From assembly GCF_009914755.1 (NCBI RefSeq), contig NC_060931.1: a stretch of DNA of 64,000 nucleotides; one strand, written 5' to 3'. Below, one piece after another: positions 49,701-55,357 of this stretch. The DNA is from the human T2T-CHM13v2.0 reference genome, Homo sapiens. The notes beneath the pieces are model-generated. The model did no database searches. It was not told the origin of the DNA and saw only the letters and a list, made by a program, of their open reading frames with translations. Position 1 is the stretch's first letter. Each line of letters opens with the position of its first letter. A program made the position numbers and the translations under genes.

Positions 49701-52700
49701 TCTCTAGCACTTTTAATTGTGATGTTAGAGTGTAAATTTTAGATCATTCCTGCTTTCTATTGTGTGCATTTAGTGCTATAAACTTCCCTCTGGTACTTTG
49801 AGTCTGTGTTCTCATTGCTTTCAGAGAATATTTACCCAGTAAGTCATTCAGGAGCAGGTTGTTCAGTTTCCATGTAGTTGTGCAGTTTTGAGTGAGTTTC
49901 TTAATCCTGAGTTCTAATTGGATTGCACTGTGATCTCAGAGACTGTTTATGATTTCTGTTCTTTTGCATTTGCTGAGGAGTGTTTTACTTCCAATTATGT
50001 GGTCACTATTAGAATAAGTGTGATGTGGTGCTGAGAAGAATGTATATTCTGTTGATTTGGGGTGGAGAGTTCTGTAGAAGTCTATTAGGTCTGCTTGTTC
50101 CAGAGCTGAGTTCAAGTCAAGTCCTGAATATCCTTGTTAATTTTCTGTCATGTTGATCAGTCTATTATTGGCAGTGGTGTGTTAAATTGTGTGGGAGTCT
50201 AAGTCTCTTTGTAGGTCTCTAAGAACTTGCTTTATGAATCCGGGCGCTCCTGCATTGGGTGCATCTATATTTAAGACAGTTAGCTGTTCTTGTTACATTG
50301 ATCCCTTTACCATATTTAATGCCCTTCTTCGTCTCTTTTGATCTTTGTTGGTTTAAAGTCTGTTTTATCAGAGACTAGAATTGCAACTCCTGCTTTTTTT
50401 TTTTTTTTTTTTTTTTGCTATTTGCTTGGTAAATATCCCTCCATCCCTTTATTTTGAGCCTATGTGTGTCTTTGCACGTGAGATGGGTCTCCTGAACACA
50501 GCACACTGATAGGTCTTGACTCTTTATCCAATTTGCCAGTCTGTGTCTTTTAACTGGGGGCATTTAGCCCATTTACATTTAAGGTTAATATTGTTATGTA
50601 TGAATATGATCCTGTCATTGTGATGCTAGCTGGTTATTGTGCCTGTTAGTTGATGCAGTTTCTTCATAGTGTTGATGGCCTTTACAATTTGTTACGTTTG
50701 TGGTACCAGTTGTTCTTTTCCATGTTCAGTGCTTCCTTCAGGAGCTCTGGTAAGGCAGGCCTGGTGGTGACAAAATCTCTCAGCATTTGCTTGTCTGTAA
50801 AGAATTTTATTTCTCTTTCACTTATGAAGCTTAGTTTGGCTGGATATGAAATTCTGGCTTGAAAATTCTTTTCTTTAAGAATGTCGAATATGGGCCCCCA
50901 CTCTCTTCTGGCTTGCAGGGTTTCTGCAGAGGGATCCACTGTTAGTCTGATGGGCTTCCCTTTGTGGGTAACCTGACCTTTCTATCTGGCTGCCCTTAAC
51001 ATTTTTTCGTTCATTTCAACCTTTGTGAATCTGATGATTATGTGTCTTGGGGTTGCTCTTCTCAAGGAGTATCTTTGTGGTGTTCTCTGTATTTCCTGAA
51101 TTTGAATGTTGGCCTGTCTTGCTAGGTTGGGGAAGTTCTCCTGGATAATATCCTGAAGAGTGTTTTCCATTCTCCCCATCACTTTCAGGTACAACAATCA
51201 AAGGCAGATTTAGTCTTTTCACATAGTCCCATATTTCTTGGAGGCTTTGTTTGTTCCTTTTTATTCTTTTCTCTCTAATCTTGTCTTCTCACTTTATTTC
51301 ATTAAGTTGATCTTCAATCTCTGATATTGTTTCTTCTGCTTTATTGATTTGGCTATTGATACTTGTGTATGCTTCACGAAATTTTTGAGCTGTGTTTTTC
51401 AGCTCCATCAGGTCATTTATGTTGTTATCTAAACTGGTTATTCATGTTAGCAATTCTTCTGACCTTTTTTCAAGGTTCTTAGCTTCCTTGCATTTGGTTA
51501 GAACATGCTCTTTTAGCTCAGAGGAGTTCGTTATTACCCACCTTCTGTCAATTCGTCAAACTTATTCTCTGTCCAGTTTTGTTCCCTTGCTGGTGAGGAG
51601 GTGTGATCCTTTGGAGGGGAAGATGCATTCTGGTTTTTGAAATTTTCAGCCCTTTCGAGCTAGTTTCTCCCCATCTTCGTGGATTTATCTACCATTGGTG
51701 TTTGATTTTGGTGACCTTCGGATGGGGTCTCTGAGTGGACGTCCTTTCTTATTGATGTTAATGCTATTCCTTTCTGTTTGTTAATTTTTCTTCTAACAAT
51801 CAGAACCCTCTGCTGCAGGTCTGCTGGAGTTTTCTGGAGGTCCACTCCAGACCCTATTTGCCTGGATATCACCAGCAGAGGCTACAGAACAGCAAAGATT
51901 GCTGCCTGTTCCTTCCTCTGAAAACTTCATCCCAGAGGGGCACCTGCCAGATGCCAGCCAGAGCTCTCCTTTATGAAGTGTCTTTTGTCCCCTACTGGGA
52001 GGTGTCTCCCAGTCAGGAGACGTGGGGTCGGGACCCACTTGAGGAGTCAGTCTGTTCCTTAGCAGAGATCAAATGCTGTGCTGGGAGATCTGCTGCTCTC
52101 TTCAGAGCCATCAGGCAGGGATGTTTAAGTCTGCCTAAGCTGCACTCACAGTGCCCCTTGCCCCAGGTGCTCTGTCCCAGGGAGATAGATAGGAGTTTTA
52201 TCTATTAGCCCCTGACTGGGGCTCCTGCCTTTTTTTTCACAAATGCCCTGCCCAGAGAGGAGGAATCTAGAAAGGCGGTCTGGCCACAGCAGACTTGCTG
52301 AGCTGTTGTGGGCTCTGCCCAGTTTGAACTTCCTGGTGACTTTATTTACACTGTGAAGGTAAAACAGCCTACTCAAGCCTCAGTAATGGCAGACGCCCCT
52401 CCCCAGCTCGAGCATCTCAGGTCAACCTCAGACTGCTGTGCTGGCAGCGAGAATTTCAAGCCAGTGGATCTTAGCTTGCTGGGTTCTGTGAGTGTGGCAC
52501 CTGCCCAGCCAGACCACTTGGCCCCCTGGCCTCAGCCCCCTTTCCAGGGCAGTGAATGGTTCTGTCCTGGCAGTGAATGGTTCTGTCCTGCTGGCATTCC
52601 AGGTGCCATTGGGGTATGAAAAAAAGCTCCTGCAGCTAGCTAGGTGTCTTCCCAAATTGCCACCCAGTTTTGTGGTTGAAACCCAGGGCCCTGGTGGCGG

Positions 52701-53017
52701 AGGCACCAGAGGGAATCTCTTGGTCTGCGGGTTGCAAAGACTGCGATGTATCTGGGCTGGAGTACACCGTTCACAGTCTTTCACAGCTTCCCTTGGCTAG
52801 GGCAGGGAATCCCTGACCCCTTGCGCTCCCCAGGTGAGGCAATGCCCCACTTTGCTTCAGCTTGCCCTCCGTGGGCTGCACCCACTGTCCAACGAGTCCC
52901 AATGAAATGAATTGGGTACCTCAATTGGAAATGTAGAAATCACCCATCTTCTGCATTGATCTCGCTGGGATCTGCAGACCGGAGCTGTTCCTATTTGGCC
53001 ATCTTGCCCAGAATCTC
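46744..53017 (-). mobile_element. Near-full-length L1PA7/8-like element (left arm), missing its extreme 3' end and poly(A)
   Basis: Minus-strand 5' end GAGATTCTGGGCAAGATGGCCAAATAGGAACAGCTCCGG. 5'UTR present; ORF1 and ORF2 fragments in the ORF track (e.g. [15 protein letters not shown]). The 3'UTR stops at ...GTAACAAACC. Confidence 0.95.
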
Positions 53018-55357
53018 AACTTCTTTTTTTAAGATTTCACATAGGGAGATCCTGGATCCAAGATGGCCAAATAGGAACAGTGCCAGCCTGCAGCTTCCAG
53101 TGAGATTGATGCAGAAGGTGGGTGATTTCTGCATTTCCAACTGAGGTACCTGGCTCATCTCATTGGGACTGGCTGGACAGTAAGTGCAGCCCATGGAGGG
53201 TGAGCTGAAGCAGGGTGGGGTGTTGCCTCACCTGGGAAGTGCGAGGGGTTGGGGAACTCTCTCCCCTAGCCAAGGGAAGCCATGAGGAATGGTGCATTCC
53301 GGCCCAGATACTATGCTTTTCTCATGGTCTTTGCAACCCACTAGACCAGGAGATTCCCTCGGGTGCCTACACCACCAGGGCCTTGGGTTTCAAGCACAAA
53401 ACTGGGTGGCTGTTTGGGCAGACACTGAGCTAGTTGCAAGAGTTTTTTTTTCATACCCAAGTGGGGCCTGGAGCACCAGCAGGACCGAACTATTCACTCC
53501 CCTGGAAAGGGGGCTGAAGCCAGGGAGCTGAGTGGACTAACTCAGTGGATCCCACCCCCACAGAGCTCAGCAAGCTAAGATCCACTGGCTTGACATTCTC
53601 ACTGCCAGCACAGCAGTCTGAAGATGACCTGTGACTCTCAAGCTTGGTGGGAGGAGGGGTGTATACCATTATTGAGACTGGAGTAGGCAGTTTTCTCCTC
53701 ACAGTGTAAACAAAGCTGCTGGGAAGTTTGAACTGGGCAGAGCCCACCACAGCTCTGCAAAGCCCTTGTAGCCAGACTGCCTCTCTAGATTCCTTCTCCC
53801 TGAGCAGGGCATCTCTGAAAGAAAGGCAGCAGCCCCAGTCAGGGGCTTATAGATCAAACTCCCATCTCCCTGGGATAGGATAGAGCACCTGGGGGAAGGG
53901 GCAGCTGTGGGTGCAGCTTCAGCGGAATTAAACATCCCTGCCTGATGGCTCTGAAGAGAGCAGTAGATCTCCCAGCACAGTGTTTGACCTCTGCTAAGGG
54001 TCATACTCTCTCCCGAAGTGGGTCCCTGACCCCTGTGTCTTTGACTGGGAGATACCTCTCAGCAGGGGTTGACAGATGCCTCATACAGGAGAGCTCTGGC
54101 TGGCATCTGGCAGGTGCCCCTCTGGGATGAAGTTTTCAGAGGAAGTAACTGGCAGCAATCTTCGCTGTTCTGCAGCCTCCGTTGGTGATATCCAGGCAAA
54201 CAGGGTCTGGAGTGGACCTCCAGCAGACCTGCAGCAGAGGGTCCTGACTGTTAGAAGAAGAAAGGAATAGCATTAACATCAATAAAAAAGGATGTCCACT
54301 CAGAGACCCCGAACTGAAGGTAACCAACATCAAAGGTAGATAAATCCATGAAGACGAGGAAAAACCAGCACAAAAAGTCTGAAAATCCAAAAACCCAAAT
54401 GCTTCCTCTCCTCCAAAGTATCACAACTCTTCACCAGCAGGGGAACAAAACTGGATGAAGAATCATTTTGACAAATGGACAGAAGTAGCCTTCAGAAGGT
54501 GAATAATAACAAACTCCTCTGAGCTAAAGGAACACGTTCTAACAAACAGAATGCAGGGAAGCTAAGAACCTTGAAAAAAGTTAGATGAATTGCTAACAAG
54601 AATAACCAGTTTAGATAACAGCATAAATGACCTGATGGAGCTGAAAAACACAGCTCAAAAATTTCGTGAAGCATACACAAGTATCAATAGCCAAATCGAT
54701 AAAGCAGAAGAAACAATATCAGAGATTGAAGATCAACTTAATGAAATAAAGTGAGAAGACAAGATTAGAGAGAAAAGAATAAAAAGGAACAAACAAAGCC
54801 TCCAAGAAATATGGGACTATGTGAAAAGACTAAATCTGCCTTTGATTGTTGTACCTGAAAGTGATGGGGAGAATGGAACCAAGTTGGAAAACACTCTTCA
54901 GGATATTATCCAGGAGAACTTCCCCAACCTAGCAAGACAGGCCAACATTCAAATTCAGGAAATACAGAGAACACCACAAAGATACTCCTTGAGAAGAGCA
55001 ACCCCAAGACACATAATCATCCGATTCACAAAGGTTGAAATGAACGAAAAAAATGTTAAGGGCAGCCAGATAGAAAGGTCAGGTTACCCACAAAGGGAAG
55101 CCCATCAGACTAACAGTGGATCCCTCTGCAGAAATCCTACGAGCCAGAAGAGATTGGGATCCAATATTCAACATTCTTAAAGAATTTTCAATCCACAATT
55201 TCACATCCAGCCAAACTAAGCTTCATAAGCAAAGGAGAAATAAAATTCTTTACAGACAAGCAAGTGCTGAGAGATTTTGTCACCAGCAGGCCTGCAAGAG
55301 CTCCTAAAGGGCACACTCAATATTGAAAGAAAAAACTGGTACCAGCCACTGCAAACA

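What the first reader, a model, noticed from the sequence alone, without database searches (positions are those of the whole stretch)
50930..55130. Patchwork arm-to-arm gene conversion: ORF1 tract ~99% identical while the 5' ends differ by ~16%
Seen: the reverse complement of ~50930-51410 matches ~54640-55130 almost perfectly. By eye there are about 2 substitutions, one A-run indel and one 11-bp deletion between TGGAA repeats. Both arms carry the same unusual variants (both translate MKRLNLPLIVVPESDGENG and RYSLRR...VEMNEK, whereas the third L1 gives MKRPNLRFTSV and RYSSRR...VEMKEK). The first ~175 bp of the two 5'UTRs differ at about 28 positions. Inference: sequence was copied between arms long after insertion, like palindrome-arm conversion on sex chromosomes but driven by two L1s in an intron.
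Basis: partly seen in the sequence, partly recalled or inferred. Interest (0 to 1): 0.8.

Follow-up and report, generated by a model that had tools for sequence, protein, structure and literature searches.

The report
Gene conversion between two inverted L1s
Two old L1 retrotransposons lying head to head in a THSD7A intron have copied short stretches of sequence onto each other long after they inserted, which is a clean example of a process already known for neighbouring repeats.

Summary
Two roughly 6-kb L1s lie head to head: left arm 46744-53017 on the minus strand, right arm 53044-59556 on the plus strand, with about 26 bp between them. Outside the tracts they are 86.6% identical. The ORF1 tract (right 54598-55123, left 50932-51445) has only 4 substitutions in 514 aligned bases, plus an 11-bp deletion and a 1-bp A-run indel.

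- **Private variants:** Inside the tract the arms share 17 variants that are rare or absent (10% or less) in 28 unlinked L1 copies. Three multi-variant 35-41-mers, two from this tract and one from the ORF2 tract, occur only in these two arms in the 3.1-Gb genome. A control 38-mer occurs 717 times.
- **Outside the tracts:** The arms are no closer to each other than to unlinked copies.
- **Independent insertion:** The right L1 has its own target-site duplication, and the flanks are not homologous.
- **Other tracts:** Three weaker, more decayed clusters suggest earlier events.

Best reading is non-crossover, non-allelic gene conversion between inverted L1s (confidence about 0.9). Donor arm, exact date and population status are undetermined. 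This is a new member of a known kind and of modest interest.

The parts
46744..53017 (-). Left arm: full-length L1 on the minus strand, with its 5' end at about 53017 and its 3' end at about 46744. The 3' end carries a small deletion and a degenerate A-rich tail further left.
   Evidence: BLAST of the arms, MAFFT, sequence read.
53044..59556 (+). Right arm: full-length L1 on the plus strand. It carries a roughly 450-bp interspersed-repeat insertion, an Alu insertion and a roughly 700-bp internal deletion relative to the left arm.
53018..53043 (.). Short spacer between the two L1 5' ends. Its right 13 bp are the 5' copy of the right L1's target-site duplication.
53031..53043 (+). Target-site duplication of the right L1, 5' copy (AAGATTTCACATA).
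   Evidence: Local alignment: 12 of 13 identical to 59557-59569, in direct orientation.
59557..59569 (+). Target-site duplication of the right L1, 3' copy (AAGATTTCACGTA), directly after the A-rich tail.
54598..55123 (+). Tract A, right copy (3' half of ORF1). It is 99.2% identical to the left copy and holds 17 shared private variants.
   Evidence: unique k-mers.
50932..51445 (-). Tract A, left copy. It carries a private 11-bp deletion between 51169 and 51170 that shifts the ORF1 frame.
58292..58583 (+). Tract B, right copy (3' part of ORF2). It has 6 substitutions in 292 bases (98.0%) and 11 shared private variants. By identity alone it may extend to about 58264-58659.
47622..47918 (-). Tract B, left copy.
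54133..54283 (+). Candidate older tract C, right copy (end of 5'UTR / start of ORF1; left copy 51751-51924). It has 6 shared private variants, 9 substitutions in 151 bases (94.0%).
   Evidence: Not significant on its own in the permutation test.
58838..58881 (+). Candidate tract D, right copy (left copy 47324-47367). It has 5 shared private variants in 44 bp and 2 substitutions.
   Evidence: Permutation p = 0.37 for its 3-site core.
56210..56252 (+). Candidate tract E, right copy (left copy 50253-50295). It has 4 shared private variants within 43 bp, with 92% local identity.
   Evidence: suggestive only.
55345..55810 (+). Interspersed repeat of about 450 bp inserted in the right arm only, about 220 bp beyond the 3' edge of tract A. 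Family not determined.
   Evidence: Gap in the arm alignment. Dispersed copies at 81-87% identity, 256 candidates of which 40 were scored.
56479..56780 (-). Alu inserted in the right arm only.
   Evidence: Alu 5'-end motif with 1 mismatch at 56761-56779; sequence with T-run and flanking direct repeat.

Best explanation
Two L1 elements inserted independently, head to head, at essentially the same spot in a THSD7A intron, and each decayed on its own. Much later, a break or stalled fork in one arm was repaired using the inverted partner on the same chromatid or the sister chromatid as template. The repair copied about 0.5 kb of ORF1 (tract A) without a crossover, which is non-allelic (interlocus) gene conversion. 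The donor's accumulated private mutations were thereby written into the acceptor.

An earlier event of the same kind copied about 0.3-0.4 kb of ORF2 (tract B). Three shorter, more decayed clusters (C, D, E) may record still older events.

What is shown:
- the mosaic identity pattern;
- the private shared variants;
- independent insertion of the right arm;
- absence of a net inversion.

What is inferred:
- the repair pathway;
- the order and number of events;
- the dates.

The donor arm is undetermined.
For: 1. **Discrete tracts.** Arm-to-arm identity is 0.97-1.00 in tract A and 0.97-0.99 in tract B, against 0.76-0.95 elsewhere. Background identity outside all listed tracts is 0.866.

2. **Shared private variants cluster in the tracts.**
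- Of 650 informative sites over the whole elements, 59 are shared-rare, meaning both arms carry the same base and it is found in 10% or less of the unlinked copies.
- 17 of them lie in the 514 columns of tract A, where there are only 4 discordant sites. 11 lie in the 292 columns of tract B, with 6 discordant. 14 lie in the 4262 background columns, with 542 discordant.
- The best-segment score is 13 for A and 6 for the core of B. The maximum over 5000 permutations was 5.

3. **Empirical null from unlinked copies.**
- Over the 5' half, 378 of 378 unlinked pairs score 5 or less, and 377 score 3 or less. The two arms score 13.
- Over the 3' half, 373 of 374 pairs score 5 or less. The exception is an X/Y paralogous pair. 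The two arms score 6.
- Either arm against unlinked copies scores 2 or less (5' half) and 4 or less (3' half).

4. **Genome-wide search.**
- For tract A the other arm is the best hit (96% with the indel counted) and the best unlinked copies reach 92% (40 of 3381 candidates scored).
- For tract B the figures are 96% and 93% (40 of 7385 scored).
- Exact 38-, 35- and 41-mers spanning several private variants occur twice in the genome, only in the two arms. A 38-mer from the same tract without private variants occurs 717 times.

5. **Outside the tracts the arms are not special to each other.** In the 5'UTR the arms are 0.824 identical. Unlinked copies are 0.813-0.869 identical to the left arm and 0.777-0.847 to the right arm. 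In tract A the arms are 0.994 identical, while unlinked copies are 0.910-0.932 identical to either arm.

6. **Independent insertion and no net inversion.** The right L1 has a 13-bp target-site duplication (12 of 13 identical) in direct orientation at 53031-53043 and 59557-59569. The flanks of the two arms share no homology.

7. **Literature.** Non-allelic conversion between neighbouring retroelements within about 10 kb is documented for Alu (passages read in PMC6598467 and PMC8230782).
Against: - No outgroup or orthologous sequence was available, so non-reciprocity, donor direction and timing are inferred and not observed.
- The unlinked copies were chosen as the best-scoring 28 per tract from a first look that scored only 40 of 3381 or 7385 candidates. 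Rare relatives could therefore have been missed.
- Exact k-mer searches would miss decayed members of a small sub-lineage.
- Only tracts A and B survive the permutation and empirical-pair controls. C, D and E were picked out after looking at the data, so their Fisher p-values are inflated.
- Read-level support for the assembly at this locus was not examined.
- No convincing target-site duplication was found for the left arm, so its independent insertion rests on the lack of shared variants outside the tracts.
- Conversion between sequences only about 87-92% identical is expected to be inefficient, and the sequence does not explain why it happened here.
Confidence: 0.9

Rival explanations
1. 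The shared variants mark a rare L1 sub-lineage or a chimeric source element. On this view both arms inherited the tract sequence at insertion, and nothing was copied between them afterwards.
For: - L1 subfamilies do carry diagnostic variants.
- The genome searches scored only 40 of 3381 and 40 of 7385 candidates.
- Exact k-mers would miss decayed members of a small sub-lineage.
Against: - Inheritance at insertion cannot remove the private decay that each arm shows everywhere else, about 13 differences per 100 bp between the arms. Tract A has 4 differences in 514 bp where about 69 are expected.
- Variants from a shared source would be spread along the element, not confined to blocks.
- No unlinked copy exceeds 93% identity to the tracts.
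- 0 of 378 unlinked pairs over the 5' half show a comparable cluster. Of 374 pairs over the 3' half, only the X/Y paralogous pair does.
Confidence: 0.02
2. The tract is an assembly or polishing artefact. On this view reads from one arm were used to correct the other, creating a false identical patch.
For: - The patches lie in repeated DNA.
Against: - The tract copies are not literally identical. They differ by 4 substitutions, an 11-bp deletion and a 1-bp indel.
- The tract edges lie inside unique-enough sequence, because the flanks are only about 87% identical, so mis-mapping over 0.5 kb is unlikely (inference).
- Two separate tracts at different identity levels, 99.2% and 98.0%, look like events of different age and not like one processing error.
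- From recalled knowledge, not from a call: the assembly comes from an effectively haploid cell line and was built from long accurate reads that would span a whole arm.
Confidence: 0.04
3. The structure is an ancient inverted duplication of one L1, or a single twin-priming-like event, whose arms diverged everywhere except where selection preserved the sequence.
For: - The two 5' ends lie only about 26 bp apart, which is a striking arrangement for two independent insertions.
- No convincing target-site duplication was found for the left arm.
Against: - The right L1 has its own target-site duplication and A-rich tail.
- Homology stops inside the L1s and the flanks do not match.
- Outside the tracts the arms share essentially no private variants and are as far from each other as from unlinked copies.
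- Both arms are dead copies with stop codons and frameshifts in ORF1, and the shared variants are derived changes, so constraint explains nothing.
- Twin priming gives non-overlapping inverted and direct segments, not two full-length copies (recalled knowledge).
Confidence: 0.01
4. This is a variant of the main mechanism. Sequence was still copied between the arms, but by replication template switching between inverted repeats (quasi-palindrome correction on a large scale) and not by double-strand-break repair.
For: - The sequence outcome, non-reciprocal copying onto an inverted partner without a crossover, is the same under either pathway.
- Inverted L1 or Alu pairs are discussed as hairpin-forming and replication-perturbing structures (PMC2603318, passages read).
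Against: - Template-switch events described in print are, as far as I recall, tens of bases long and short-range. Here the copied stretch is 0.3-0.5 kb and the copies are 3.2-10.4 kb apart.
- Nothing in the sequence separates the two pathways.
Confidence: 0.12

Closest known systems
Non-allelic gene conversion between neighbouring Alu elements (the genome-wide study of Aleshin and Zhi 2010, as cited in PMC6598467 and PMC8230782)
   Same: - Retroelement copies that inserted independently and lie within about 10 kb exchange short stretches.
- The exchange is detected through shared non-diagnostic mutations.
- The tracts are short relative to gene-sized duplications.
   Different: - The partners here are 6-kb L1s and not 300-bp Alus.
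- The tracts are longer (0.3-0.5 kb) and there are several of them at different stages of decay.
- The two elements are exactly head to head.
Arm-to-arm gene conversion in Y-chromosome palindromes (PMC3723533; search listing and abstract only)
   Same: - Intrachromosomal conversion between inverted arms on one chromosome.
- Non-crossover outcome.
- Inversions are the crossover alternative.
   Different: - Per that abstract, palindrome arms are more than 99.9% identical, with frequent multi-kilobase conversion. They are usually described as gene-bearing duplications homogenised along their whole length (recalled).
- Here the arms are independent transposon insertions with 86.6% background identity and only rare sub-kilobase patches.
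[quoted passage not shown]
   Same: - The substrate is the same: an inverted L1 pair in a genic region.
- The requirement for sequence identity is the same.
   Different: - Those are crossover products. They invert the intervening DNA and leave chimeric elements.
- Here the orientation of the target-site duplication shows no net inversion, and the exchange is confined to internal tracts.

Membership tests
Non-allelic (interlocus) gene conversion tract | A discrete stretch of much higher identity between paralogous copies, bounded by lower-identity flanks | tested here: met
   Tract A is 0.992 identical and tract B 0.980, against a background of 0.866. About 69 mismatches are expected in A and 4 are seen.
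Non-allelic (interlocus) gene conversion tract | Derived variants private to the pair are concentrated in the tract, and private differences between the copies are missing there | tested here: met
   Tract A has 17 shared-rare and 4 discordant sites. The background has 14 shared-rare and 542 discordant. This holds against the permutation and unlinked-pair controls. The variant-bearing k-mers occur only in the two arms, while the control k-mer occurs 717 times.
Non-allelic (interlocus) gene conversion tract | The copies arose independently, or earlier than the tract similarity implies | tested here: met
   The right arm has its own target-site duplication and the flanks are not homologous. Outside the tracts the arms are no closer to each other than to unlinked copies. 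The left arm's duplication was not found.
Non-allelic (interlocus) gene conversion tract | Non-reciprocal transfer with an identifiable donor and acceptor, and tree incongruence across orthologous loci | not testable with these tools
   No primate orthologues are held. The donor test based on subfamily-like sites was inconclusive.
Sex-chromosome-type palindrome | Arms that are near-identical along their whole length and kept so by frequent conversion | tested here: not met
   Background arm identity is 0.866. Identity is high only in patches of 0.5 kb or less.
Inverted segmental duplication | Homology extends beyond the repeat element into the flanking unique DNA | tested here: not met
   Arm homology ends at 46744 and 59458, inside the L1s. 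BLAST of the outer flanks found nothing.
L1 twin-priming inversion | One insertion with one pair of target-site duplications, whose inverted 5' part and direct 3' part are non-overlapping pieces of one L1 | tested here: not met
   Both arms cover the whole L1 from 5'UTR to 3'UTR. The right arm alone is bracketed by a duplication, one copy of which lies in the central spacer.
Retrotransposon recombination-mediated inversion | The segment between the inverted elements is inverted, leaving chimeric elements | tested here: not met
   The 5' copy of the right arm's duplication is still next to the right arm and in direct orientation. An even number of inversions cannot be excluded.

The most novel reading that the evidence does not exclude
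The pair behaves as a slow, self-renewing autosomal mini-palindrome.

- Conversion has struck it repeatedly, two to five times, over its residence. Tract identities of 92, 94, 95.5, 98.0 and 99.2% would then form a time series.
- Each event regenerates a long, near-perfect inverted repeat.
- The present 0.5-kb repeat at 99% identity, with arms 3.2 kb apart, would then be a live substrate for recurrent inversion of the centre. That centre holds both L1 5'UTRs and a RefSeq-annotated enhancer.
- It would also allow a 0.5-kb near-perfect double-stranded RNA to form in THSD7A pre-mRNA.
- Both outcomes might vary among people.
Probability: 0.2. Interest if true: 0.5.

Novelty: new member of a known kind. 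Interest (0 to 1): 0.35.

Why it matters
The locus is a clear, well-controlled case of old, dead L1 copies overwriting parts of each other. This has three practical consequences.

- **Dating and classification.** Divergence-from-consensus ages and subfamily calls for such copies are mosaics. Presence/absence or shared-mutation markers taken from them can mislead.
- **Recombination substrates.** Conversion recreates long stretches of near-perfect inverted identity inside elements that are otherwise too diverged to recombine. Perfect runs of 175 and 137 bp exist here. This can renew the risk of inversion or other rearrangement inside a gene (inference).
- **Double-stranded RNA.** Both arms lie in one THSD7A intron, so the pre-mRNA can pair over about 0.5 kb, making it a possible editing substrate (inference, not tested).

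None of this changes current understanding; it illustrates it.

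Tried and rejected
- **Fetching full-length copies.** The whole-element map was built from the 56 loci already held. Coverage is therefore thin, at 11-14 copies, around right 57389-58108.
- **Earlier notes.** Earlier-scan notes were not available.
- **First alignment of the 3' set.** The upstream part of the first multiple alignment of this set was poor: mean identity to the other copies was about 0.62. I replaced it by adding the copies to the fixed arm-to-arm alignment. 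In one search a few loci were oriented wrongly, which one search corrected.
- **Left-arm target-site duplication.** Two weak, mutually exclusive candidates were found. One, at about 46689-46701 against 53017-53030, was seen by eye. The other, at 46658-46669 against 53025-53036, came from the local alignment. Neither is convincing.
- **Donor direction.**
  - Private-variant density in the tract (3.3 per 100 bp) matches both arms' background rates (4.1 and 4.4 per 100 bp).
  - Two subfamily-like sites in the tract associate with copies that resemble the left arm. Two weaker sites point the other way.
  - The direction is left undetermined.
- **Conversion at the slowest-decaying L1 segments.** I considered claiming that conversion struck these segments. 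I rejected this as untestable here, because the comparison copies were selected for similarity to exactly those segments.
- **Tracts C, D and E.** They do not pass the permutation test on their own.
- **Literature.** Four searches found no description of this locus and no genome-wide study of L1-L1 conversion. They did find general statements and Alu studies. Subscription-journal papers are not covered by these searches.

Full report
**What is there**

The window is human chr7 (T2T-CHM13; hub annotation). Positions 46744-53017 hold a full-length L1 on the minus strand (left arm). Positions 53044-59556 hold a full-length L1 on the plus strand (right arm). Their 5' ends face each other across about 26 bp. 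Both lie in the THSD7A intron between the exons at 43493-43588 and 62753-62926 (hub annotation).

The right arm differs from the left in three ways:
- It carries a roughly 450-bp dispersed repeat at 55345-55810. This repeat has 256 genomic candidates, 40 of them scored, at 81-87% identity.
- It carries an Alu at about 56479-56780.
- It lacks about 700 bp of ORF2 that the left arm keeps at 48104-48805.

Both ORF1s are dead, with stop codons in both arms and a frameshift in the left.

**Check of the observation**

A global alignment of the reverse-complemented left arm with the right arm gives 5480 aligned pairs at 88.7% identity overall. Sliding 100-column windows run at 0.76-0.95, apart from two patches:
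- right 54584-55145 / left 51459-50910, at 0.97-1.00;
- right 58259-58658 / left 47951-47547, at 0.97-0.99.

- The 11 bases that the left arm lacks are present in every one of the most frequent variants shown among the 28 unlinked copies, which were not all listed.
- The extra A in the right arm is the minority state among those copies.
- So both indels look like changes private to one arm.

The first 175 bp of the 5'UTRs differ by 30 substitutions and 2 gap columns.

**Is it copying between the arms, or just a conserved or lineage-specific segment?**

I searched the whole 3.1-Gb genome with each tract.
- Tract A: the other arm is the best hit (96% with the gap counted). The next best copies, on other chromosomes, reach 92% (40 of 3381 first-look candidates scored).
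- Tract B: the figures are 96% and 93% (40 of 7385 scored).

The 56 unlinked copies returned with 1.5-kb flanks were added to the fixed arm-to-arm alignment. Every column was then classed by how common each arm's base is among the unlinked copies.

Of 650 informative columns, 59 are shared-rare, meaning both arms carry the same base and it occurs in 10% or less of the others. They are strongly clumped:

| Region | Aligned columns | Shared-rare sites | Discordant sites |
|---|---|---|---|
| Tract A | 514 | 17 | 4 |
| Tract B | 292 | 11 | 6 |
| Outside all listed tracts | 4262 | 14 | 542 |

A GENECONV-like best-segment score gives 13 for A and 6 for the core of B. The maximum in 5000 permutations of site order was 5.

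An empirical null uses real L1 copies:
- Over the 5' half, all 378 unlinked pairs score 5 or less, and 377 score 3 or less.
- Over the 3' half, 373 of 374 pairs with at least 800 comparable columns score 5 or less. The one exception (score 74) is a pair on contigs 23 and 24, evidently the same X/Y-homologous locus.
- Either arm against unlinked copies scores 4 or less.

Exact words of 38, 35 and 41 bases spanning several private variants occur twice in the genome, once in each arm. A 38-base word from tract A without private variants occurs 717 times, so the search can see L1 copies.

Outside the tracts the arms are ordinary strangers:
- In the 5'UTR the arms are 0.824 identical, inside the range of either arm against unlinked copies (0.777-0.869).
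- In tract A the arms are 0.994 identical, while unlinked copies are 0.910-0.932 identical to either arm.

The decisive point is the missing private decay, more than the shared variants. At the local mismatch rate of 0.134, about 69 differences are expected in tract A and 4 are seen. A shared source lineage cannot explain that. Only copying after the decay had accumulated can.

**Independent insertions and no inversion**

- The right L1 is bracketed by a 13-bp direct repeat, 12 of 13 identical, with the one difference at a CpG. One copy lies at 53031-53043, just before its 5' end. The other lies at 59557-59569, just after its A-rich tail.
- Arm homology ends inside the L1s at 46744 and 59458, and the outer flanks share nothing.
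- So this is not an inverted segmental duplication. It is also not a twin-priming product, because both arms are complete.
- A crossover within tract A would have flipped the centre, carrying the 5' repeat copy to the left arm in reverse orientation. It has not moved, so the exchange left no net inversion. An even number of inversions cannot be excluded.
- I could not find a convincing target-site duplication for the left arm. There are two weak and incompatible candidates.

**More than one event**

| Tract | Right-arm coordinates | Identity | Shared private variants |
|---|---|---|---|
| A | 54598-55123 | 99.2% | 17 |
| B | 58292-58583 | 98.0% | 11 |
| D | 58838-58881 | 95.5% | 5 |
| C | 54133-54283 | 94.0% | 6 |
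| E | 56210-56252 | about 92% | 4 |

The differences inside B and C are mostly C/T, as expected of later decay.

The graded identities fit events of different age. Taking the 13.4% background difference as the pair's whole residence, tract A (0.8%) falls in roughly the last 6% of that time, and B (2.1%) in the last 15%. This is a rough inference that ignores rate changes and CpG saturation.

Only A and B pass the controls. C, D and E were noticed after the fact and remain candidates.

**Mechanism**

The pattern is the standard signature of non-crossover, non-allelic gene conversion. A lesion in one arm is repaired by copying from the inverted partner 3.2 kb away (tract A) or 10.4 kb away (tract B) on the same or the sister chromatid.
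- Tract lengths of 0.3-0.5 kb are ordinary for mammalian conversion (recalled knowledge).
- Replication template switching between the inverted arms would leave the same footprint and cannot be told apart here.
- The donor arm is undetermined. Private-variant density does not discriminate, and subfamily-like sites give a weak, mixed hint towards the left arm.

**Comparison with what is known**

- Conversion between neighbouring retroelements is established for Alu, with a distance dependence out to about 10 kb (passages in PMC6598467 and PMC8230782).
- Inverted L1 pairs are known to cause inversions between human and chimpanzee (PMC2603318, passages).
- A recent L1 pangenome preprint lists gene conversion among the processes that blur old L1 history (PMC13192797, one passage).
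- Y-palindrome arm conversion (PMC3723533, abstract in the listing) shares the geometry but not the intensity.
- Four literature searches turned up no description of this locus and no genome-wide L1-L1 conversion survey. The library lacks most subscription journals, so this is weak evidence of absence.

**Verdict**

The phenomenon is a good specimen of a known process, so it is a new member of a known kind and of modest interest. Open points are the donor arm, the dates, read-level confirmation, and whether the locus varies or inverts among people.

Noticed in passing
window 53018-53043 (spacer), with 59557-59569: The two L1s inserted at almost the same nucleotide. The right half of the spacer is the right L1's target-site duplication. 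It abuts a T-run followed by AA, which reads as an L1 endonuclease-type site on both strands. The arrangement fits two sequential insertions on opposite strands at one hotspot, but the left arm's duplication could not be confirmed.
   Followed up: partly
L038 (G000:C23:154139711-154143143) and L041 (G000:C24:62336709-62340141): Two of the 'unlinked' control L1 copies, on contigs 23 and 24, share 84 rare variants out of 94 informative sites (segment score 74). They are evidently the same locus in an X/Y-homologous region. The pair served as an unplanned positive control for the method.
   Followed up: no
window 53408-53908: The RefSeq 'enhancer' feature in the hub annotation lies wholly inside the 5'UTR of the right L1. 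It sits in the segment that a crossover between the tract-A copies would invert.
   Followed up: no
window 58109-58123 / left 48104-48805: The right arm lacks about 700 bp of ORF2 that the left arm retains. The two BLAST segments overlap by 15 bp at the junction, which suggests a deletion between short repeats.
   Followed up: partly
window 46560-46615: A perfect tandem duplication of a 28-nt unit lies just outside the left arm's degenerate A-rich tail.
   Followed up: no
window 55345-55810: A dispersed repeat of about 450 bp is inserted in the right arm only. It has at least 256 genomic candidates, with copies at 81-87% identity. It may be a solo LTR, but the family was not determined. It lies about 220 bp beyond the 3' edge of tract A and would block any longer conversion there.
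   Followed up: partly
window 8704-13414: A third L1, on the minus strand and 5'-truncated within ORF1, lies about 33 kb to the left of the left arm.
   Followed up: partly
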